A stretch of DNA of 34,339 nucleotides from a virus (taxonomy: Duplodnaviria; Heunggongvirae; Uroviricota; Caudoviricetes): IMG/VR virus record IMGVR_UViG_2648501437_000013; one strand, 5' to 3'. This document shows positions 1 to 24,401 of this stretch, piece by piece. Numbering within the stretch: the first letter of the stretch is position 1; each line of letters starts with the position of its first letter. Below the pieces are notes generated by a model. The model had not been told where the DNA came from and ran no database searches. It saw only the letters and a program-made list of their open reading frames with translations. The position numbers and the translations under genes were made by a program.

Positions 1-111
1 TGGCGATTGCCAGCCGCCTTTCTCGTTCCATCCTGGAACTGTGTCTTACCGACACATTGTCATCCTGACGCCGATAAGATACATGATTTAAAATGATAGG
101 TAAACACTTAC

Positions 112-705
112 TTACCACTTGTTATAAACAAAACCAATATCTTTCTTGTGAGGCATATCTGCTGCTGAAAAAGCTGCGATCTTCGCGAGTCGATCACATA
201 TTTCATTTTCACGATGCCCGGCGTGACCTTTAACCCACTTCCAGCGAACATTATGTCGACTTGCGGCCTCATCCAGACGCTTCCACAGATCAACATTCTT
301 TACCGGTTTTTTGTCAGAAGTCATCCATCCATTGCGTTTCCACCATTTCATCCACTGTGTCATGCCGTTTTTCAGATACTGGCTATCAGAGTGTAAAATA
401 ACGTTGCATGGATATTTCAAACGCTCCAGCCCGATAAGTGCCCCCATCATCTCCATGCGGTTATTGGTGGTGCTATGAAAACCATCTGAGAACTCGCGTT
501 CCTCTCCACGATACTGAAGAACGATACCGTAACCGCCCGGGCCACCCGGATTTTTAAGGCAAGAGCCATCACTGAAGATTTTCACGGTTTTAAGCTGGGG
601 ATTGAACTCTACGACAGGCGTTGTGGGATTGGTGCGGGGAGAATTTTTGTTTTTGGCTTTTTTGCGAGTTTTTGCTTGCGATCGGGCTGGTGTCTTCGTC
701 GTCAT
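112..705 (-). CDS. rnhA: Ribonuclease HI (RNase H), with ~40-aa Lys/Arg-rich N-terminal extension
   Basis: Translation shows RNase HI hallmarks (SDGSC...[19 protein letters not shown], [15 protein letters not shown]). Start moved from track 759 to ATG at 703-705, which is preceded by CAGGAG 5 nt upstream. Confidence 0.85.
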
Positions 706-1289
706 ATAAACTCCTGAATCAAGCGCCGCGCCGATTTTTTTCCTCGCGCGTGCGCACACGCGTGCGTGTTAATAATTATTAAAATAAACAAATTACTTCC
801 CAGAACAGGTTTTTATAAACCTGAACTGAACGAACGAAGTGAGTGAAGTTCACCTCGAACGAAGTGAGAGGTTGTCTTTTCAGGTAATACTCTCCCAGGG
901 AGGTGAGTATAAAAATCCCTCACCAACCTGGTCGTTTCATAACCTGAAAAGTTATGGTCTAAGTCTACTGCCAGCTTAGACTTGGGAAGTTATGGATGAC
1001 AGCACCCCAGAACCGAGATCTTCCCACACTTTATGAAGGGGAGTACTGGATTCAACCTCTCGAAACACCCCAGACTCGACAATCATAAAGTGACCCTTGT
1101 CTCCGCTCACTTTGGTTCCCCCTTCCCCGACACCTAAACGGCACCGGTTCTACGCTGGTAGTGAACTTTTTTAAACCTGACGCCAGTGACGCTTACCCCC
1201 ACCCATCAGGTCGAGTCTCCAGTCTACGACTGGAAACTATCAGATCTTAGCACTTACAATTCATCTTATGAATAGTTTGTACTTATCTA

Positions 1290-1520
1290 TCATTTCGATT
1301 GATTATTTTCTCGACCATGTAGTTGAACATTCAAGGCAAACACCTCGTTGATCAACTCACCTAAAAGCTGTTCAACAAGTTCGCGATGCTCCCCAAGATG
1401 CAAGCACTTAATTGCCCATTCGTACAAGTTGAAAGCCTGCTCGCGATCTTTCATCATTTCACGAGCCTTAGCCAGAAAATCGCTCTCTACGAGCGCAACA
1501 ACATTGGTCGGGTATGGCAT
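1290..1520 (-). CDS. Hypothetical protein (76 aa)
   Basis: Intact ORF, AAGGAAAA-type RBS upstream of ATG, same strand as flanking operons. No recognisable motif. Confidence 0.4.
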   Translation of the reverse strand: MPYPTNVVALVESDFLAKAREMMKDREQAFNLYEWAIKCLHLGEHRELVEQLLGELINEVFALNVQLHGRENNQSK

Positions 1521-1625
1521 GTTAGTTTTCCTTAAAGTGGTTCATAAAATCGATTTTAAAGCGTCTGGGAAGGGTTCTAGTGGATTCTGTAGTGATGTTC
1601 AGGTCTGGAGTCTCTGATACAAAAC

Positions 1626-1684
1626 AGCCTGCTTCCGTATATTAATAATTAATATGTAGTTATTTATATATACAGAAGCAGGCT
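1626..1684. terminator. Long imperfect hairpin (15-bp arms AGCCTGCTTCCGTAT / ATACAGAAGCAGGCT, AT-rich palindromic loop)
   Basis: Inverted repeat read directly; lies downstream of the minus-strand methyltransferase gene (stop 1706) with GTTTTGT after the stem on the minus strand. Confidence 0.4.
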
Positions 1685-1705
1685 AATTACAGACGCCAGA
1701 ACAAA

Positions 1706-2299
1706 CTAAGCAGCCTTCTTTGATGGTCTTTTTTTCCTGACCACATTCGCAGGATCATACCCTCCCAGACTTTTCATGACGTCCAAAGGGATCTTGCTTA
1801 TAGAGTGCCCAGCGTCCTGACAGAATCCTCGAAAAACAACGAGCATACTGCCACCGGGGTTGATGTTTACTTCTACCTGACCCAAATTGACGTCAGGCTC
1901 GACAAACGCTACGCGGCCACCAGACAGAATAATCGTCTCATTCGCATACTCTGTTGCACGCTCATACCACTTTGTATCGAGGGATTGAGGAATTAGAATC
2001 ACTGTTGTAACTCCGCGAGCCTGCTCACGTATAGCAGCATCAATCCAGGGGGAGATTTTGGAGTAGGGTGGATTGAGGAAGGCAATTGTACCTGGCTGTC
2101 CCCATTCAGATTTCAAAGCATCACGCTCAATGCCTATGAAATTAGGCAGCTTTGCGTTGTCCTTGTTGCAGGCAACGTCAACATCAAATGTCACTCCAAG
2201 ATAACGTTGAATGGCAGAAAACAGCCAATCAGGTGTTCTCCAGAGGTCACGAAGAGAGTTGTCGCGCTTTCGCTGTTTGATTTTTTCGGCTGCAATCAT
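1706..2299 (-). CDS. DNA N6-adenine methyltransferase, phage Dam family
   Basis: WRTPDWLF, FDVDVACN and FLNPPYS motifs typical of the phage N6-adenine MTase family (NPPY catalytic motif). Confidence 0.8.
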   Translation of the reverse strand: MIAAEKIKQRKRDNSLRDLWRTPDWLFSAIQRYLGVTFDVDVACNKDNAKLPNFIGIERDALKSEWGQPGTIAFLNPPYSKISPWIDAAIREQARGVTTVILIPQSLDTKWYERATEYANETIILSGGRVAFVEPDVNLGQVEVNINPGGSMLVVFRGFCQDAGHSISKIPLDVMKSLGGYDPANVVRKKRPSKKAA

Positions 2300-18915: not shown

Positions 18916-20010
18916 ATGTCCACAAAAAATAAAAAAGGTAAAAATAACAAAGAAGTAGAAGATAATCTCGACAACTTTGAAGAAGGTTCCCTTGAATTGT
19001 ACACAGGGGAACTTGTCCCTAATAGCAACAATACAGTCCAACCAATTGCGTTGATGCGGCTGGGGTTGTTCGTGCCCACGCTCAAGGGGACAAAATACAG
19101 CAAGCGTAACAAGCCAAATGAGATCGATGCTTCAAAGGAGCTTGTTCAGCTCGAAGTAGCCCGTTCTGAAGGTTATTCCGATATCAAGATAACCGGTCCT
19201 CGTCTCGACATGGATCATGATTTCAAAACGTGGGTGGGCGTTGTGCGTTCGCTGGCAGAATACGGCGAACCTAACGGTCGTGTCGAGTTAAGCATCACGA
19301 AATTTGCGAAGTTTTGTGGCTATCCATCGTCACAGATCCGCAAAACACTCCGCGACCGGCTTACAAACAGTCTTTTGAAGATCATGCGTACAACTCTGTC
19401 TTTTCAGAGAACGTATGAAGAAAAGAACGTCGACGGCTCTAACAAGATCTCGCTTCTGATGGTGCACCTCATCAATAGCGTGGACTACAACGAGCAGAAA
19501 GATACGGTGGTGTTCTATGCAGAACCGAAGCTGGCCGAACTATATCGCTTTGACCATAAAGTTCTTTTGCAGTTAAAGGTTATCAATAAGCTACCACGCA
19601 AAGAAACAGCACAGGCTCTGTACACCTTCATCGAAAGTCTTCCAACCAAGCCTGCGCCGGTATCGCTTGCTCGATTACGTGCGCGACTCAATTTGAGTAG
19701 CAGGAATGTCAGCTCGCAGAATCAGACTATACGTAACGGCTTAAAAGCTCTCCAAGATTTGGGCTATCTCGAATACAGCGAGATTAAGCGAGGGCGGTCG
19801 ATCTATATCCAGATTCACAGCCGCAATCCAAAACTCAAAGTCGCACCGCCAAAACCTGAAGACATCGAACCCAAAAAACCAGATGAGAAAGCTGGGGAAA
19901 TTGATGCCAAACAGAACATTATCAACAAGATAACCGAACTTTCGCAGAATTTGACGCCTGAAAATATCAAGATGATTGAGATCCTTTCCAATAGTCTCAA
20001 ACTGCTTTGA
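18916..20010 (+). CDS. repA: Replication initiator RepA (P1 RepA / RepFIB-type)
   Basis: Recalled similarity to P1 RepA (NSNNTVQPIALMRLGLFVP, DIKITGPRLDMDHDFKTW, YTFIESLP, HSRNPKLK); start moved to ATG 18916 (AAAGG RBS) because the track start reads through the iterons. Confidence 0.85.
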   Translation: MSTKNKKGKNNKEVEDNLDNFEEGSLELYTGELVPNSNNTVQPIALMRLGLFVPTLKGTKYSKRNKPNEIDASKELVQLEVARSEGYSDIKITGPRLDMDHDFKTWVGVVRSLAEYGEPNGRVELSITKFAKFCGYPSSQIRKTLRDRLTNSLLKIMRTTLSFQRTYEEKNVDGSNKISLLMVHLINSVDYNEQKDTVVFYAEPKLAELYRFDHKVLLQLKVINKLPRKETAQALYTFIESLPTKPAPVSLARLRARLNLSSRNVSSQNQTIRNGLKALQDLGYLEYSEIKRGRSIYIQIHSRNPKLKVAPPKPEDIEPKKPDEKAGEIDAKQNIINKITELSQNLTPENIKMIEILSNSLKLL

Positions 20011-20542
20011 TATGCTGTCAGCGGTGAAATGTATGCTATCAGCGGCTATTTTTCTGAAAAGTATGCTGTGAACGGTTAAAGATATGCTACCAGCGGTATA
20101 GTGAGATAAACGTATGCTGTGAGCGGTAAATCATCTATCACCACTCAATGCTCTGGCATACCTCCCCAGTGGTTACTAACCTCGAAGAGTGCATTCCATA
20201 TAGGTTTGCGCTCACTAACATTCTATTGCCGTTGCGCTGATTGCTTGTAGTGAAAGGCATTTATTGCCTGCTGCTCCCTGATAGAACGTATGCTGTCAGC
20301 GGTGTTTTATTGAGGAATTTTTGTTTGGATATGCTATCAGCGGTAATTAATGGTATATGTCAGACCTTCGTATGCTGCCAGCGGTAATTTTGTTCTGGTT
20401 ATACCCATACCGGTACACATTATTCATGCAATGTCTTAAGTATGCTGTCAGCGGTAAAAAATCGAGTAAAGTATGCTGTGAGCGGTGAGATAAACTCTCG
20501 ATATGCTATCAGCGGTAATTGATTGTGTATGCTGTCAGCGGT
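20011..20542 (+). repeat. Downstream iteron array, 12 copies of TATGCT(G/A)(T/C)(C/G)A(G/A)CGG(T/C) in two groups (5 + 7) separated by a ~160-bp spacer
   Basis: Copies at 20011, 20032, 20062, 20083, 20113, 20289, 20330, 20371, 20441, 20472, 20503, 20528, all in the same orientation; position matches a P1 incA-like copy-control locus. Confidence 0.8.
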
Positions 20543-20558
20543 GACGACTATGAAATAT

Positions 20559-20580
20559 GACTGCGGCACGTGCCGCAGTC
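20559..20580. terminator. Perfect 22-bp palindrome GACTGCGGCACGTGCCGCAGTC
   Basis: Read directly; sits between the iteron array and the stop of minus gene 20590..20802; no strong T-run, so it may be a protein-binding site rather than a terminator. Confidence 0.4.
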
Positions 20581-20589
20581 AGTTTGCAT

Positions 20590-20802
20590 TTAGTGTATTT
20601 TCTTTAACAGACCCCAAAGTGTTCCGGCTTTTGTAGTCAGTTTTCCTGTTTCTGGATCGTACATACGCCATTCACGCCGCTGGTGGACGATATACCCATC
20701 TTCACGTTCCAGACGCTCAAGAATGCCAGGCTGCTTGAAACCCTTAGCACGCCAGTAGCCGCTTGTTTTCTCGATTTCCAGACCTGCCAGTGTTAATGCC
20801 AT
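20590..20802 (-). CDS. Hypothetical protein (70 aa)
   Basis: Intact ORF translationally coupled to the upstream gene. Confidence 0.4.
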   Translation of the reverse strand: MALTLAGLEIEKTSGYWRAKGFKQPGILERLEREDGYIVHQRREWRMYDPETGKLTTKAGTLWGLLKKIH

Positions 20803-21137
20803 TATCCAACCTCCTTGCAGTCATCGAAAAGGTAGCTTTGCTGAGAAGCGTGAACGCCATAGAAGCCCTTGTATTTGTTGTATACGAAGTGGTCTTCTCC
20901 GACGCCGGTTAATTTGCCATTACGGTTTGTGAGATATGGGGATGACAATACTCGATCGTCACGCACTACATAGAACTGGTCGCCGCTGTCTACGACCATC
21001 GCGCCATATGGTGCTTTTATGACGTCGGTAAAAGCGCCATTCTTAATGTCGGCTACAGACATTTCACACTGATAAACAGTGGTGTCGGCCACAACGATCG
21101 AAGAAAGGAACAACAGAGCGAATGGGATGGCCTTCAT
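20802..21137 (-). CDS. Predicted secreted/periplasmic protein (111 aa) with N-terminal signal peptide
   Basis: MKAIPFALLFLSSIVVA hydrophobic leader followed by a polar mature region with two Cys. Confidence 0.55.
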   Translation of the reverse strand: MKAIPFALLFLSSIVVADTTVYQCEMSVADIKNGAFTDVIKAPYGAMVVDSGDQFYVVRDDRVLSSPYLTNRNGKLTGVGEDHFVYNKYKGFYGVHASQQSYLFDDCKEVG

Positions 21138-21313
21138 GCTGCCACCTCTTTGATTACATCAAATGCTGAATTAAATACGAGCACGATAGCCAAAGCGTTT
21201 ATGACTACTTCGTTCACCGGGGAAAAGACTTTACGAATGACACCAGTGAAAATGCAGTCGATGACAAAAGCTATTGACACGATGAGTAACAAGTATTCAA
21301 TAAAAATCTTCAT
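21134..21313 (-). CDS. Small hydrophobic membrane protein (59 aa, two predicted TM helices), absent from the ORF track
   Basis: My translation: MKIFIEYLLLIVSIAFVIDCIFTGVIRKVFSPVNEVVINALAIVLVFNSAFDVIKEVAA; its TGA overlaps the ATG of 20802..21137 (ATGA coupling). No strong RBS. Confidence 0.35.
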   Translation of the reverse strand: MKIFIEYLLLIVSIAFVIDCIFTGVIRKVFSPVNEVVINALAIVLVFNSAFDVIKEVAA

Positions 21314-21352
21314 GATAGGTAGATACTAACTTATATAAATTTTACTGTAAAC

Positions 21353-21628
21353 TCACTCAAAAGTGCTGATGCTTAAAATACGCTCAAGATGTGCGGCATC
21401 TTCATCACTGATTTGTTGAGTCTCTTCTACGTACCAACAGTTGCCGTTATGCCAACAAACACCATCATCATCAACCATCACTGAATCAGCGTCATGACCT
21501 GTATATTCAACGAGAATGCGCTGGATCAGCGCGTCAGTTTCTTCGTCGTTAAGGCCATCGGCTTTGACCATAAAAAGCGGAAACACGTCATAGACAGTGC
21601 TGGTAACGATTCGAACTAAAACTCTCAT
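21353..21628 (-). CDS. Hypothetical protein (91 aa)
   Basis: Intact ORF preceded by the conserved CCACAAAAGGAAAAACAC leader. Confidence 0.5.
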   Translation of the reverse strand: MRVLVRIVTSTVYDVFPLFMVKADGLNDEETDALIQRILVEYTGHDADSVMVDDDGVCWHNGNCWYVEETQQISDEDAAHLERILSISTFE

Positions 21629-21683
21629 GTGTTTTTCCTTTTGTGGTTAGTGTTTACTTATTTTGTTAGTTATGAATAGGCGA

Positions 21684-22109
21684 TCAATCTTCTTGTTTAG
21701 GGAAAAACTGTTCAATAACTCTGTCAACGGCTGTGTCTATATGGAGTAGATGCCACACAACCATATCTTTGCTTCCCATGCCTTGTGTGAATATCACGTC
21801 ATACTTACGCCATGCGCAGTGGAACCAATATGCTGAGTCATCAATTGGTAAATCCTCTCCCGCCTCTTTGAAGTATTTCAGCAGCATTGCCTGCTCTGCC
21901 GTTGGCGTTGGACCTATTTCCTGAGCGTACATACGGATGAATCGCTGCCAGTCTGTCTCGTCGGGGGTTGGATCTGGTGGGGTCATTTCTGCGATAGCGT
22001 TTCGTAGCTGATGCGCCCAATCAGGTTCAGGAAAGCCTTTTGCTACTTCATCATCAATAACATCCAGAGCCACGTTTGCGGCATCGTAGAGTTTCTTAAT
22101 AGCTGTCAT
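21684..22109 (-). CDS. Hypothetical protein (141 aa)
   Basis: Intact ORF, first gene after terminator 22160..22196. Confidence 0.5.
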   Translation of the reverse strand: MTAIKKLYDAANVALDVIDDEVAKGFPEPDWAHQLRNAIAEMTPPDPTPDETDWQRFIRMYAQEIGPTPTAEQAMLLKYFKEAGEDLPIDDSAYWFHCAWRKYDVIFTQGMGSKDMVVWHLLHIDTAVDRVIEQFFPKQED

Positions 22110-22159: not shown

Positions 22160-22196
22160 AAAAAAGGCGTCCAACTGGACGCCTGAACTTTTTAGG
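22160..22196. terminator. Rho-independent terminator A6-GGCGTCCA-act-GGACGCC-T5
   Basis: GC-rich stem flanked by A-run and T-run (bidirectional); downstream of the SPFH gene. Confidence 0.8.
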
Positions 22197-22200
22197 GGAG

Positions 22201-23031
22201 TTATTTCACTGTAATGAAAGGAGTGTTAGCCCCTTGAGTCATGTACTGCGGTAACTGGCCATTCCATTTATTGATGGCTTCCAGTTCCATAACGTTCGGG
22301 TTTTGACGCAGAGCTTCACCGCGCAGACGAATGGCGTCTGCTTCTGCTTGCGCACGAGCACGGATAGCATCAGCTTCACCATTAGCCTGTTCACGTAGCA
22401 TATTCGCCTCAGCTTTACGTTGTTCAACTTCCTGCTGACGTTGCAGAGTACGCTGGTTAGCCGTTACTTTGGCGTTAATAGATTCAATGACAGTTTTTGG
22501 GTAATCAGGCTTTCCAACCCATGACAGGCTCAGTACCTCAATACCAACCGGAGACATCTCTTTCTGAATATCTTTCAGTGCGTTGTCCAGCAATTGTGCC
22601 TTACCACCGTCGATAAATGAGTCAGTGGTCATACGGCTGGCCAAACGGTTTAGAGAGTCGGCAATTTTCTGACGCAGATCTGATTCGGTGATATCGTCTA
22701 CGCCTTTGCGATAGGTCTGGAACACCGTCGTTACCTTGTCACGATTAACCAGATACGCAACGCCAATTTTGTGACCAATAGCAGTACCGTCACTCATCTG
22801 GAATGTGAACGGCTCGTCGTAGGTCTTCATTTGTTTGAAGGTCGGGAATACGTAAAGTTCGGTGTTAAGACCTGTCCATTGGCGACCAACGCCAACCACT
22901 TCACCAATCCCTTTGTCTTCACCTAATTTGTTTACTTTGATGCCAACGTATCCAGGCTCCACGCGATCGCAGCCAGTAAGACCCATTGTGCAAATAGCCG
23001 CCAGAGCAACTGCAAGTAAACCTTTCTTCAT
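22201..23031 (-). CDS. SPFH/Band-7 (stomatin/prohibitin-like) lipoprotein
   Basis: Signal peptide with lipobox LTGC; core resembles the SPFH domain; C-terminal Ala/Glu/Arg/Gln-rich coiled-coil region. Confidence 0.65.
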   Translation of the reverse strand: MKKGLLAVALAAICTMGLTGCDRVEPGYVGIKVNKLGEDKGIGEVVGVGRQWTGLNTELYVFPTFKQMKTYDEPFTFQMSDGTAIGHKIGVAYLVNRDKVTTVFQTYRKGVDDITESDLRQKIADSLNRLASRMTTDSFIDGGKAQLLDNALKDIQKEMSPVGIEVLSLSWVGKPDYPKTVIESINAKVTANQRTLQRQQEVEQRKAEANMLREQANGEADAIRARAQAEADAIRLRGEALRQNPNVMELEAINKWNGQLPQYMTQGANTPFITVK

Positions 23032-23034
23032 TAC

Positions 23035-23235
23035 TTATTTCCCCTTTGCTTTGATTAATGAGTTGATAAACTTACGACCAGCAATAAGACCGATTACAGG
23101 AGCACCAAAACCAACGATAACTCCAAACATGACGGCTAAATCACTCTTGGTAGAAATCAGCGACGGAACCAGTAAACCGTAGATGAGAGCCACTGAAAGG
23201 CCTGTGGCTACTGCCAATAGATAGATTTTGATCAT
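23035..23235 (-). CDS. Small membrane protein (66 aa, two TM segments), first gene of the SPFH operon
   Basis: Hydrophobic sequence MIKIYLLAVATGLSVALIYGLLVP...VIVGFGAPVIGLIAG; conserved leader upstream. Confidence 0.5.
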   Translation of the reverse strand: MIKIYLLAVATGLSVALIYGLLVPSLISTKSDLAVMFGVIVGFGAPVIGLIAGRKFINSLIKAKGK

Positions 23236-23267
23236 GTGTTTTCCTATGTGGTTGTTATGCGAAAATA

Positions 23268-23283
23268 ATAAGTAAGTGCTTAT
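23268..23283. promoter_or_regulatory. Palindromic motif ATAAGTAAGTGCTTAT upstream of the SPFH operon
   Basis: Arms ATAAG/CTTAT; recurrent motif family. Confidence 0.4.
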
Positions 23284-23297
23284 ATATTTTCAAGAGA

Positions 23298-23327: not shown

Positions 23328-24401
23328 TTACTCTTCTACTGACTCGGTGGGGTTGTCTTTTGCTCTTCGGTCGTCGATTGCCTGCAAAGCCGCAATGATT
23401 TCAGCCAGTGGCTTCTCCCGATACATCTCGACGATCTGCGATTTGGTGTATTTCTTGTCACCAATTTCAACTCGCCCGCTGGCGTTCTTTGGCAGGTATC
23501 CTTCTTCCAGCATGTACTCGACGAGCGATTCGATAACGTCGAGGCCACGAGTAGGATCGAAGTAGAATTTCCAGGTGCATTTGCCATACGGTGGTGCAAC
23601 TTTGTTTTTGATGCATTCTGCGCCTACGTCCTGGCCGATCTTCTCTTTACCATCCTTCATCACCGATGCACCAAGACGGATACGTACAGAAGCGTAGAAC
23701 TTCGGTGAATCTCCACCTGGCGACGTAGTAGGGTCGCCAAACATTACACCGATTTTTGTGCGAACCTGATTCAAGAAGATGATGCAGGCGTTGTATTTGC
23801 GTGCCCACAAAGCCAGAGTAGGGAAGTTCGCACTCGTCGCACGAGCCAGTGCCGTATTGTCGTTCATGTTTAGCTGATCTTTGTCTTTGGCAGTGCCTTC
23901 AGCCATCTTTTCGAACTTCTCGGCTTTGGAGTTCGGAACCATAGACGCAAGAGAGTCAGCCACGATACAGATTGGTGCTGATTCGGGGATAAGCTCTTCA
24001 TCACGAACCAATTTAAGTATTGTGCCGATCAACTCTACAGAGTCTTCGAAGGTATCTGGCTGCTTGTATACCCACTGACCGTCATCCTCATCTGCGTTCA
24101 GGCCATTGGCGACAGCCAGGCCAACGTCAAAACTGTTTTCATGATCGAGGAATACCGCCAGACCATCTTGTTTTTGAGCGGAGATCATCGCTGCTGTTGC
24201 AAGGAACGTTTTCCCTGCACTTGGAGGACCGAATACTTCGACGATACGACCACATGGGAAGCCGCCATCGTAACGACCAGAAATAGCTTTGTTTAACGGT
24301 GGAAAGCCTGTATCAATCCAATGAGTTACTTTCTGAATTTCGTCGTTGCTACCGATTTTCTTTTTCAGAGCAAGTGCCAGTGCGGATTTTCCTTTTGCCA
24401 T
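23328..24401 (-). CDS. RecA-superfamily recombinase (UvsX/RecA-like)
   Basis: Walker A VEVFGPPSAGKTF, Walker B-like VFLDHENSFD; ~357 aa as for RecA/UvsX. Confidence 0.8.
   Translation of the reverse strand: MAKGKSALALALKKKIGSNDEIQKVTHWIDTGFPPLNKAISGRYDGGFPCGRIVEVFGPPSAGKTFLATAAMISAQKQDGLAVFLDHENSFDVGLAVANGLNADEDDGQWVYKQPDTFEDSVELIGTILKLVRDEELIPESAPICIVADSLASMVPNSKAEKFEKMAEGTAKDKDQLNMNDNTALARATSANFPTLALWARKYNACIIFLNQVRTKIGVMFGDPTTSPGGDSPKFYASVRIRLGASVMKDGKEKIGQDVGAECIKNKVAPPYGKCTWKFYFDPTRGLDVIESLVEYMLEEGYLPKNASGRVEIGDKKYTKSQIVEMYREKPLAEIIAALQAIDDRRAKDNPTESVEE

What the first reader, a model, noticed from the sequence alone, without database searches (positions are those of the whole stretch)
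21134..21313. Unannotated 59-codon two-TM membrane protein translationally coupled to a secreted protein
Below the ORF-track length cutoff, but the reading frame is clean, strongly hydrophobic, and its stop overlaps the start of the signal-peptide protein 20802..21137 as ATGA. The pair (small membrane protein plus secreted protein) could be a holin/spanin-like or exclusion module.
Basis: seen in the sequence. Interest (0 to 1): 0.4.

Follow-up and report, generated by a model that had tools for sequence, protein, structure and literature searches.

The report
Small membrane gene in phage-plasmid operon
The 59-codon reading frame is a real, conserved gene for a tiny two-helix membrane protein that heads a three-gene operon of SSU5/pMT1-type phage-plasmids; public databases already list it as a protein of unknown function, and it is not part of the phage's lysis machinery.

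Summary
ORF 21134..21313 (-) encodes a 59-aa protein with two hydrophobic helices, and its TGA overlaps the ATG of a 111-aa signal-peptide protein (ATGA). The window is an E. coli SSU5-like phage-plasmid. The ORF is intact in 13 of 15 loci examined (always 59 codons there) and in three remoter relatives (45-51 aa). It is under purifying selection (pN 0.16 vs pS 0.87 against SSU5, p=2e-17). It equals PHROG 2535 and SSU5_066/CYRAN_60. "Unannotated" is true only of some RefSeq records.

It is the first cistron of an operon of three genes: the membrane hairpin, a periplasmic beta-barrel with two invariant cysteines, and a 70-aa Cra-like protein. A conserved promoter/operator element abuts the start codon with no Shine-Dalgarno, and a terminator follows, next to the repA iterons.

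Published RNA-seq of the 98%-identical phage Cyrano shows the trio silent in LB. Its first two genes show the largest macrophage-over-DMEM rise of all Cyrano genes at 6 h. The upstream gene stays low.

The holin/spanin reading is not supported, because the lysis cassette lies elsewhere and the defining features fail. The function is unknown. My best guess (~0.3) is an inducible envelope module for exclusion or protection. Interest is low to moderate.

The parts
21323..21351 (-). Sigma-70-type promoter-like site TTTACA-17 nt-TAGTAT. Its -10 hexamer ends 9 nt before the ATG of the 59-aa ORF.
   Evidence: Consensus scan. The -35 and -10 hexamers are kept in all 15 close loci, and equivalent sites occur in remote relatives: TTGAAA-17-TACTAT in L021 and TTCATG-16-TACTAT in L020. 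In Cyrano RNA-seq, expression steps up about 12-fold between CYRAN_59 and CYRAN_60.
21314..21333 (-). Conserved operator-like element TAAGTTAGTATCTACCTATC. It overlaps the -10 hexamer and the expected transcript start and abuts the start codon. There is no Shine-Dalgarno between it and the ATG.
   Evidence: Nearly invariant from E. coli to Klebsiella. In remote relative L021 it is one arm of a perfect 10-bp inverted repeat, TAGGTAGATA-AGTTAC-TATCTACCTA, followed by an SD-containing leader. A 19-mer search with up to 3 mismatches finds a second copy at 96..114 (-), against 0 expected by chance.
21134..21313 (-). 59-aa small inner-membrane protein with two hydrophobic helices (about residues 7-26 and 36-54) and a basic RK..PVN loop. 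It is the first cistron of the operon and equals PHROG 2535 / SSU5_066 / CYRAN_60.
20802..21137 (-). 111-aa exported protein: signal peptide (residues 1-17, cleavage VVA|DT) plus a small all-beta barrel with invariant Cys24 and Cys107. It has its own SD (GAGGTG) inside the end of the 59-aa ORF. It equals PHROG 2077 / SSU5_067 / CYRAN_61.
   Evidence: (AF2 pLDDT 87).
20590..20802 (-). 70-aa cytoplasmic protein (PHROG 804; annotated 'P1 Cra protein' or 'Cre-associated' in Cyrano and SSU5). Its start overlaps the stop of the 111-aa gene by 1 nt (TAATG). It is the most conserved member of the trio.
   Evidence: (dN/dS 0.02-0.17).
20558..20581 (.). GC-rich 10-bp-stem hairpin: a terminator-like site that closes the operon just before the iteron array.
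   Evidence: I1.
21353..21628 (-). Upstream 91-aa gene (PHROG 2209). It is conserved next to the trio in SSU5-like elements, but RNA-seq shows it is transcribed separately and at a low level.

Best explanation
Shown: ORF 21134..21313 (-) is a real protein-coding gene of an SSU5/pHCM2/pMT1-type phage-plasmid. It is the first cistron of a compact three-gene operon. That operon encodes (i) a 59-aa two-helix inner-membrane protein, (ii) a 111-aa Sec-exported periplasmic beta-barrel with two invariant cysteines (a disulfide is inferred), and (iii) a 70-aa cytoplasmic Cra-like protein. A terminator closes the operon beside the repA iteron array. The trio is off in the plasmid-prophage state in rich medium and strongly induced under intracellular stress.

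Inferred, regulation: the operon has its own sigma-70 promoter, overlapped by a conserved, partly palindromic operator-like element that reaches the start codon. In this clade the first cistron would therefore be translated from a leaderless or 2-3-nt-leader mRNA. The second and third cistrons are coupled through ATGA and TAATG overlaps.

Inferred, function: the membrane hairpin most likely has its basic loop in the cytoplasm and both ends in the periplasm. It would work with the periplasmic barrel at the outer face of the inner membrane as an inducible envelope-acting accessory module. The most likely role is blocking entry or wall-degrading steps of competing phages, or otherwise protecting the envelope, once the element is derepressed. 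It is not part of the lysis cassette.

Confidence by step: real gene about 0.97; separately promoted three-gene operon about 0.8; membrane plus periplasm localisation about 0.85; exclusion or envelope-protection function about 0.3.
For: Gene reality: the frame is kept at 59 codons in 13 of 15 loci, down to 49% identity. Homologous ORFs of 45-51 aa sit at the same position in three remote SSU5-like elements. pN is well below pS. The protein matches PHROG 2535 end to end.

Operon: promoter and terminator scans, a conserved upstream element, conserved overlaps, and the gene order 91aa-small-barrel-70aa-rep in all SSU5-like loci.

Expression, from the S1 Table of PMC9928086 (GEO GSE154648), as log2(FPKM+5) for CYRAN_60/61/62: LB 2.3/2.5/3.7, macrophage 1 h 7.0/6.2/7.2, macrophage 6 h 8.6/8.4/8.9. 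CYRAN_58/59 stay at or below 5.7, and RecA, exonuclease and PolIII are flat. The rise of CYRAN_60/61 at 6 h in macrophages over DMEM (5.3-5.4 log2 units) is the largest among the 123 listed Cyrano genes.

Localisation: hydropathy peaks and the basic loop, the signal peptide, and Cys24/Cys107 being two of only five invariant residues family-wide. The AF2 model is confident (pLDDT 87, ten beta strands).

Against: There is no functional evidence of any kind. No match was found in PADLOC, Pfam, NCBIfam or PDB sequences.

The genes are silent in LB-grown lysogens, unlike classical prophage exclusion genes. pHCM2 has lost the pair through a 206-bp deletion, yet is widespread in S. Typhi, so the module is dispensable for maintenance.

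Translation of the first cistron without an SD is inferred only. A second, less conserved promoter-like site (TTTATA-16-TATCAT, 21339..21312) would start transcription inside the ORF.

Physical interaction between the two proteins is not shown. In several phages the barrel occurs without a small TM partner.
Confidence: 0.4

Rival explanations
1. Host-fitness moron. The pair is a stress- or macrophage-induced envelope-protection factor for the lysogen. For example, the barrel could be a periplasmic inhibitor of lysozyme or another peptidoglycan hydrolase, with the small membrane protein as its partner or anchor. On this reading it is not an anti-phage device.
Against: There is no sequence match to the MliC/PliC family or any other Pfam model. 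The fold hits cannot be told apart from generic barrels, and Foldseek against PDB is negative. S. Typhi pHCM2, from a macrophage-dwelling pathogen, has deleted the pair. Many Cyrano genes rise in macrophages, including toxin-antitoxin genes, the repressor and some late genes at 6 h, so induction may reflect partial derepression.
Confidence: 0.15
2. Lysis-related module: a class II holin, pinholin or antiholin (59 aa) with a spanin-like or lysis-regulating periplasmic partner (111 aa).
For: It is a small protein with two hydrophobic helices, coupled to a periplasmic protein. Some expression coincides with late-gene expression at 6 h in macrophages.
Against: Relatives have a complete holin-endolysin-Rz-Rz1 cassette elsewhere, and this window is the replication module. 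The C-terminus (KEVAA) is not a charged cytoplasmic tail, and there is no second start codon. The partner has no lipobox and is a beta barrel, not a coiled coil. The trio rises at 1 h in macrophages, when the holin CYRAN_22 is only at about 5.0, and it reaches 8.6 against 6.1 at 6 h.
Confidence: 0.05
3. Small membrane toxin, addiction or abortive-infection device. The 59-aa hydrophobic protein would damage the membrane when induced, and the other two genes would modulate it.
Against: There is no PADLOC hit. The barrel is exported and has two invariant cysteines, so it cannot sense cytoplasmic signals as Cap15 does. No CD-NTase or antitoxin-like partner is present. Identity to Cap15 is 2%. No antisense RNA or Rfam family lies in the region.
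Confidence: 0.1
4. Plasmid replication or copy-number accessory function. The trio always sits between the variable slot and the repA iterons, so it may influence replication, for example through membrane attachment or regulation by the Cra-like protein.
For: Synteny with rep is strict in all SSU5-like loci, including remote ones. The operon terminates at the edge of the iteron array. The Cra-like protein is the most conserved member.
Against: Exported and membrane proteins have no known role in iteron replicons. Barrel homologues occur in integrative phages with no plasmid replicon. pHCM2 replicates stably without the intact pair. The genes are silent while the plasmid is maintained at about 5.5 copies.
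Confidence: 0.05
5. Chance ORF or non-coding leader. On this reading the 180 nt serve only as a 5' leader for the 111-aa gene.
For: There is no Shine-Dalgarno. PGAP omits the ORF in some records. The antisense frame is also open in most relatives.
Against: The frame and its length are kept over saturated synonymous divergence (pS 0.87 vs pN 0.16, p=2e-17). Codon-position variability is 34/24/54. Remote homologues have an SD plus ATG and a conserved RKALxPVNG motif. The antisense frame is broken in Klebsiella.
Confidence: 0.02

Closest known systems
SSU5_066 / CYRAN_60 / PHROG 2535 with SSU5_067 / CYRAN_61 / PHROG 2077 (hypothetical proteins of SSU5-like phage-plasmids, including Y. pestis pMT1/pFra)
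   Same: These are orthologues with the same length, the same ATGA overlap, the same position beside repA, and 64-98% identity. The PHROG match is end to end.
   Different: Nothing differs. This is the same gene family, and none of its members has a described function.
T4 Imm (small inner-membrane protein) plus Sp/spackle (periplasmic protein): superinfection exclusion expressed early in the lytic cycle. The T4 details are from my own knowledge.
   Same: The logic is similar: one small multi-TM inner-membrane protein and one small Sec-exported periplasmic protein, expressed on derepression rather than in a quiescent lysogen. This is an analogy only.
   Different: There is no sequence or fold relation. 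Sp is helical, whereas this partner is a beta barrel. The T4 genes are not adjacent or coupled. No exclusion phenotype has been tested here.
MliC/PliC-type periplasmic lysozyme inhibitors and Brucella PhiA, Neisseria ACP
Cap15 (CBASS effector: two N-terminal TM helices plus a minimal beta barrel)
   Different: Here the parts are two separate polypeptides. The barrel has a cleavable signal peptide and two invariant cysteines, so it is periplasmic. There is no CD-NTase neighbour, identity is 2%, and there is no PADLOC hit.
Class II holins / pinholins (e.g. phage 21 S21) and Rz/Rz1 spanins
   Same: The size is small and there are two hydrophobic helices. A periplasmic partner is encoded by an overlapping gene.
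   Different: It is not in the lysis cassette. It has no charged C-terminal tail and no dual start. The partner lacks a lipobox and a coiled coil. It is expressed differently from the element's own holin.

Membership tests
PHROG 2535 (phage protein family, unknown function) | Significant full-length match to the family HMM | tested here: met
   E=1.5e-31, residues 1-59 matched to profile positions 1-59 of 59.
PHROG 2077 (partner protein family, unknown function) | Significant full-length match of the 111-aa protein | tested here: met
   E=4e-63, residues 1-111 of 111.
Holin (class II / pinholin) | Small protein with two transmembrane helices | tested here: met
   Kyte-Doolittle 19-residue peaks of 2.68 and 2.20.
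Holin (class II / pinholin) | Encoded in the lysis cassette next to the endolysin | tested here: not met
   The window is the replication and nucleotide-metabolism module. Holin, endolysin, Rz and Rz1 are CYRAN_22-25, about 30 kb away in the 98%-identical Cyrano.
Holin (class II / pinholin) | Hydrophilic, highly charged C-terminal cytoplasmic tail; often a dual-start motif | tested here: not met
   The C-terminus is ...DVIKEVAA, and there is no second Met in the protein.
Holin (class II / pinholin) | Late expression together with the endolysin | tested here: not met
   In Cyrano RNA-seq, CYRAN_60 is 7.0 at 1 h and 8.6 at 6 h in macrophages, against 5.0 and 6.1 for holin CYRAN_22. This is indirect evidence, because it is not a synchronous induction.
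Spanin (Rz/Rz1 or unimolecular) | o-spanin lipobox with Cys at +1; i-spanin N-terminal TM helix plus periplasmic coiled coil | tested here: not met
   The cleavage region is VVA|DT with no Cys at +1. The mature protein is all-beta with ten strands. The 59-aa protein has no periplasmic domain.
MliC/PliC lysozyme inhibitor family (Pfam MliC) | Match to the family HMM | tested here: not met
   No Pfam hit at E<=0.1 for the protein and no MliC hit among 17 family members at E<=1. No PliC/MliC chain appears in a profile search of PDB sequences at E<=10.
MliC/PliC lysozyme inhibitor family (Pfam MliC) | Eight-stranded periplasmic beta-barrel fold | tested here: inconclusive
MliC/PliC lysozyme inhibitor family (Pfam MliC) | Inhibition of lysozyme | not testable with these tools
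   This needs a biochemical assay.
Cap15-type CBASS effector | Single polypeptide with TM helices plus a cytoplasmic nucleotide-binding barrel, next to a CD-NTase | tested here: not met
   There are two polypeptides. The barrel has a signal peptide and invariant cysteines. No CD-NTase is nearby, and there is no PADLOC hit.
Known anti-phage defence / exclusion systems (PADLOC-DB v2) | Match of any component to a defence-system model | tested here: not met
   Zero families at E<=0.1 for the trio and its four neighbours.
Superinfection exclusion (functional class) | Expression reduces infection by the same or other phages | not testable with these tools
   This needs plating and injection assays.

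The most novel reading that the evidence does not exclude
The 59-aa membrane protein and the exported barrel could form a previously undescribed, stress-induced two-component envelope device of phage-plasmids. It would switch on inside macrophages and protect the carrier bacterium (AIEC, Y. pestis, Salmonella) against host or phage wall-degrading enzymes. It would be expressed from a leaderless first cistron under a dedicated operator. That would make it a lysogenic-conversion factor for intracellular survival.
Probability: 0.1. Interest if true: 0.6.

Novelty: already known. Interest (0 to 1): 0.25.

Why it matters
As a gene, it matters little. It is a catalogued hypothetical protein of a well-sampled phage-plasmid family, found on plasmids in 210 of 5,426 complete E. 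coli genomes and also in Y. pestis pMT1.

Three points are useful. First, annotation pipelines treat it inconsistently, so the conservation evidence here justifies annotating it everywhere. Second, the trio is a discrete, separately promoted operon whose first two genes show the largest macrophage-over-DMEM rise of the element in existing RNA-seq data. That makes it a cheap, well-defined target for a knockout study of what phage-plasmids contribute to intracellular pathogens. Third, the start codon abutting a conserved promoter/operator is a candidate natural leaderless mRNA in Enterobacteriaceae.

Tried and rejected
- **Foldseek against AFDB50:** the library was unavailable.
- **AF2 of the 70-aa Cra-like protein:** the model was poor (pLDDT 64, N-terminal 27 residues below 50). 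No fold search was run on it, and phmmer against PDB gave only chance-level hits.
- **Barrel family profile:** searches against PDB sequences and Pfam found nothing relevant.
- **Other libraries:** PADLOC, NCBIfam and Rfam gave nothing for the trio or the region.
- **Literature:** searches by accession, locus tag or PHROG number, and for SSU5 with superinfection exclusion, returned no papers. Only the LF82/Cyrano paper held usable data.
- **Regulation of the promoter:** I looked for the operator-like motif in Cyrano's repressor/early region and found none, so control by the main repressor is not supported. By eye there is no LexA box (CTGT-N8-ACAG). A PhoP-box-like direct repeat in the window is not conserved in relatives, so I rejected it.
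- **Antisense ORF 21150..21329 (+):** rejected on codon-position variability and a stop codon in Klebsiella.
- **Natural fusions:** the pHCM2 101-aa protein and the Pseudocitrobacter 167-aa protein could have meant an ancestral single-chain protein. I rejected this, because one is a 206-bp repeat-mediated deletion that removes part of the barrel and the other is a single frameshifted record.
Full report
**1. What is in the sequence**

On the minus strand, ORF 21313..21134 starts with ATG and encodes 59 aa: MKIFIEYLLLIVSIAFVIDCIFTGVIRKVFSPVNEVVINALAIVLVFNSAFDVIKEVAA. It ends in a TGA that shares ATGA with the ATG of ORF 21137..20802, which encodes 111 aa. That ORF ends in TAATG, overlapping by one base the start of a 70-aa ORF at 20802..20590.

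ORF length alone means little, because 48 ORFs of at least 30 aa overlap this 4.5-kb stretch. The case for a gene rests on conservation.

**2. Where the window comes from**

The region is 98-99.9% identical to about 110-kb E. coli plasmids and to the phages PhiR41_1, CMS-2020a and Cyrano (pLF82). It is 75% identical to Salmonella phage SSU5. It is therefore an SSU5/pHCM2/pMT1-type phage-plasmid.

The whole window corresponds to the replication, recombination and nucleotide-metabolism module: PolIII alpha, RecA, RepA, SbcCD-like, RNR, ThyX, DHFR. No lysis gene lies in it. In Cyrano, the holin, endolysin, Rz and Rz1 are CYRAN_22-25, about 30 kb away.

The trio is present on plasmids in 210 of 5,426 complete E. 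coli genomes, and never on a chromosome.

**3. Is the ORF a gene?**

Yes.

- **Distribution.** tblastn finds the protein in 768 plasmid records (714 with at least 80% coverage) from Escherichia, Klebsiella, Enterobacter, Yersinia, Salmonella, Citrobacter and Cronobacter, and in 12 phage records. Identity goes down to 49%.
- **Frame conservation.** In 13 of 15 loci that I extracted, the ORF is exactly 59 codons with the ATGA overlap intact.
- **Selection.** Against SSU5, pN is 0.16 and pS 0.87 (Fisher p=2e-17). Five of six other pairs give p<=0.01. dN/dS is 0.15-0.31 where dS is measurable, apart from one low-divergence pair (0.92).
- **Codon positions.** Variable sites fall 34/24/54 on codon positions 1/2/3.
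- **Antisense frame.** The antisense ORF of equal length (21150..21329 +) is open in most relatives but broken in Klebsiella.
- **Remote relatives.** Three remote SSU5-like elements, found through distant homologues of the partner protein, carry a homologous 45-51-aa ORF at the same position. They share the motif TSI..L.D..F.G.[RK]KA[LF].P[VIM]NG.

Two losses were seen. S. Typhi pHCM2 has a 206-bp deletion between two 12-nt repeats (GGCGCGATGGTT, encoding GAMV in both proteins). It fuses residues 1-38 of the small protein to the C-terminal two-thirds of the barrel. One K. pneumoniae plasmid has ATG->ATT plus a nonsense codon at codon 5.

**4. Annotation status**

The gene is annotated as a hypothetical protein in SSU5 (SSU5_066), Cyrano (CYRAN_60), PhiR41_1 and many RefSeq plasmids. 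It matches PHROG 2535 (unknown function) end to end with E=1.5e-31. The partner is PHROG 2077 and the third gene PHROG 804.

PGAP omits it in the 99.9%-identical pG749_2 and in the Klebsiella plasmids examined. So 'unannotated' describes some records, not the state of knowledge.

**5. The three proteins**

- **59-aa protein.** GRAVY is 1.55. Kyte-Doolittle 19-residue peaks are 2.68 (residues 8-26) and 2.20 (36-54). A conserved acidic residue followed by Cys lies in helix 1 (D19-C20), and the basic loop is R27-K28...P32-V33-N34. By the positive-inside rule the loop is cytoplasmic and both termini periplasmic. This topology is inferred.
- **111-aa protein.** It has an MK(K) n-region, a 10-12-residue hydrophobic core and V/I/L-x-A | D/N-T in every relative, with no lipobox. 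AlphaFold2 on 13 sequences gives pLDDT 87.2 and pTM 0.74, with ten beta strands forming a small barrel.
- **Barrel family.** An exhaustive HMM search of 1.84 billion cluster representatives finds only 26 proteins at E<=1e-3. Across the family the only invariant residues are Cys24, Phe55, Ser66, Pro67 and Cys107. Together with the signal peptide, this points to a periplasmic protein; a disulfide between the two cysteines is inferred.
- **70-aa protein.** It is the most conserved of the three (dN/dS 0.02-0.17). It is annotated as P1 Cra-like. Its AF2 model is poor.

**6. Operon and regulation**

Terminator-like hairpins lie at 22184..22165, after the SPFH gene, and at 20581..20558, after the 70-aa gene. 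The second abuts an array of at least 11 iterons (20009..20547) downstream of repA.

A promoter-like site, TTTACA-17-TAGTAT (21351..21323), ends 9 nt before the ATG. The sequence from -35 to the ATG is nearly invariant from E. coli to Klebsiella, and no Shine-Dalgarno is present.

In remote relatives the same element is followed by a leader with an SD, then the ATG. In one of them it is a perfect 10-bp inverted repeat, TAGGTAGATA-AGTTAC-TATCTACCTA, spanning the -10. It therefore looks like an operator on a core promoter. In this clade the leader has been lost, so the first cistron would be translated from a leaderless or 2-3-nt-leader mRNA. This is inferred.

A less conserved alternative site (TTTATA-16-TATCAT, 21339..21312) would start transcription inside the ORF. 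The 111-aa gene has its own SD (GAGGTG) within the end of the small ORF.

**7. Published expression data**

The data come from the S1 Table of PMC9928086, a re-analysis of GEO GSE154648 for E. coli LF82 carrying Cyrano. Values are log2(FPKM+5); 2.32 means zero reads.

| Gene(s) | LB stationary | DMEM 1 h | DMEM 6 h | THP-1 macrophage 1 h | THP-1 macrophage 6 h |
|---|---|---|---|---|---|
| CYRAN_60 / 61 / 62 | 2.3 / 2.5 / 3.7 | 4.3 / 4.7 / 5.4 | 3.3 / 3.1 / 6.2 | 7.0 / 6.2 / 7.2 | 8.6 / 8.4 / 8.9 |

- The upstream genes CYRAN_58 and 59 never exceed 5.7. RecA, the exonuclease and PolIII are flat.
- The step between CYRAN_59 and CYRAN_60 fits the conserved promoter.
- Of the 123 listed Cyrano genes, CYRAN_60 has the second-largest rise from LB to macrophage 6 h (6.3 log2 units, after CYRAN_46 at 6.4). 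CYRAN_60 and 61 have the largest rise over DMEM at 6 h (5.3-5.4).
- The holin goes only from about 3.1 to 6.1.
- The genes are not among the lysogeny-expressed morons listed in that paper.
- The same paper reports that Cyrano virions were not detectable above background after macrophage infection. Some late genes do rise at 6 h, so partial derepression cannot be excluded.

**8. Context of distant barrel homologues**

Apart from the remote SSU5-like elements with identical synteny, the barrel occurs in several other settings:

- in a lambdoid phage, in the operon divergent from cro, where it is overlapped by a different 46-aa single-TM protein;
- between the immI antirepressor genes and the tailspike of P22-like prophages;
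- in the tail module of a phage contig whose neighbouring genes match E217-type Pfam families;
- after a primase;
- in a prophage region with a Tlde1-domain protein.

These are typical accessory ('moron') positions. The barrel can occur without a small TM partner, but in two unrelated lineages it is coupled to one.

**9. Interpretation**

Shown:
- The ORF is a real gene.
- It encodes a small protein with two hydrophobic helices.
- It is coupled to an exported barrel protein and a small cytoplasmic protein.
- The trio is co-regulated, silent in rich medium and strongly induced in macrophages.
- It is not part of the lysis cassette.

Inferred:
- It has its own operator-controlled promoter, with leaderless translation of the first cistron.
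- The loop of the membrane protein is cytoplasmic.
- The membrane protein and the barrel cooperate at the periplasmic face of the inner membrane.

Best functional guess (about 0.3): an inducible envelope module that excludes competing phages or protects the wall once the element is derepressed. This is analogous in logic to T4 Imm plus Sp (my own knowledge), not a relative of it.

Rivals:
- a host-fitness or lysozyme-protection moron (0.15);
- a membrane toxin, addiction or abortive-infection device (0.1);
- a holin/spanin-like lysis function (0.05);
- a replication accessory (0.05);
- a non-coding leader (0.02).

The remaining probability is 'something else'.

**10. Verdict**

The holin/spanin idea is not supported, and the exclusion idea is untested. 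The gene family is already catalogued as a hypothetical protein, so novelty is low. The conserved promoter/operator abutting the start codon and the macrophage induction are the only features worth a follow-up experiment.

Noticed in passing
window 20009..20547 (+): An array of at least 11 iterons (~GTATGCTGTCAGCGGT) lies directly downstream of repA (stop at 20010). It is bounded by the bidirectional hairpin at 20558..20581. It looks like an incA-type copy-control array of a P1/RepFIB-like replicon.
   Followed up: partly
window 96..114 (-) and 21646..21660 (+): Two further copies of the operator-like motif (GTWAGTRTYTACYTA) occur in the window. One follows ORF 112..759 and overlaps the annotated start (window 107) of the small ORF annotated 'P1 TciB-like' in Cyrano. 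The other is inverted, between the 141-aa and 91-aa genes. This suggests a small regulon with an unidentified DNA-binding protein.
   Followed up: partly
L008 (S. Typhi pHCM2, NZ_CP029857.1) 1501..1806: A 206-bp deletion between two 12-nt direct repeats (GGCGCGATGGTT) fuses the small membrane gene to the barrel gene, giving a 101-aa protein. That protein cluster (P0016) is seen on about 1000 contigs, so the deletion is fixed in pHCM2.
   Followed up: yes
window 23328..24401 (-): The RecA-like gene here is intein-free (357 aa). Cyrano, PhiR41_1, an E. kobei plasmid and a K. pneumoniae plasmid carry a 2.3-kb version annotated as intein-containing or LAGLIDADG homing endonuclease.
   Followed up: no
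window 21684..22109 (-) and the equivalent slot in L010, L011, L002, L005: The slot upstream of the 91-aa gene varies between relatives. It holds DUF7238 here, DUF2591/NinX-like in SSU5 and Y. pestis, an SNF2-related protein in pJH51-3, and a type I restriction R subunit in pNT1F31-113kb. It may be an accessory or defence hotspot.
   Followed up: no
window 22201..23235 (-): A second envelope pair lies here: a 66-aa membrane protein (PHROG 1130) plus an SPFH/stomatin-like lipoprotein. It has its own promoter-like site (23293..23265) and terminator (22184..22165). The Cyrano orthologues CYRAN_56/57 also rise in macrophages at 6 h, to 7.6 and 7.3.
   Followed up: partly
P0010 (Pseudocitrobacter faecalis plasmid protein, 167 aa): In one record a frameshift near the end of the small ORF fuses it in frame to the full 111-aa precursor. 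This is probably a sequencing error or a pseudogene.
   Followed up: no
Cyrano RNA-seq table (PMC9928086 S1 Table), CYRAN_46 and CYRAN_98: CYRAN_46, a small gene divergent from the putative repressor, has the same induction profile as the trio. CYRAN_98, a LexA-like S24 peptidase, is highly expressed and rises further in macrophages. Both are candidates for the circuit that controls the trio.
   Followed up: no
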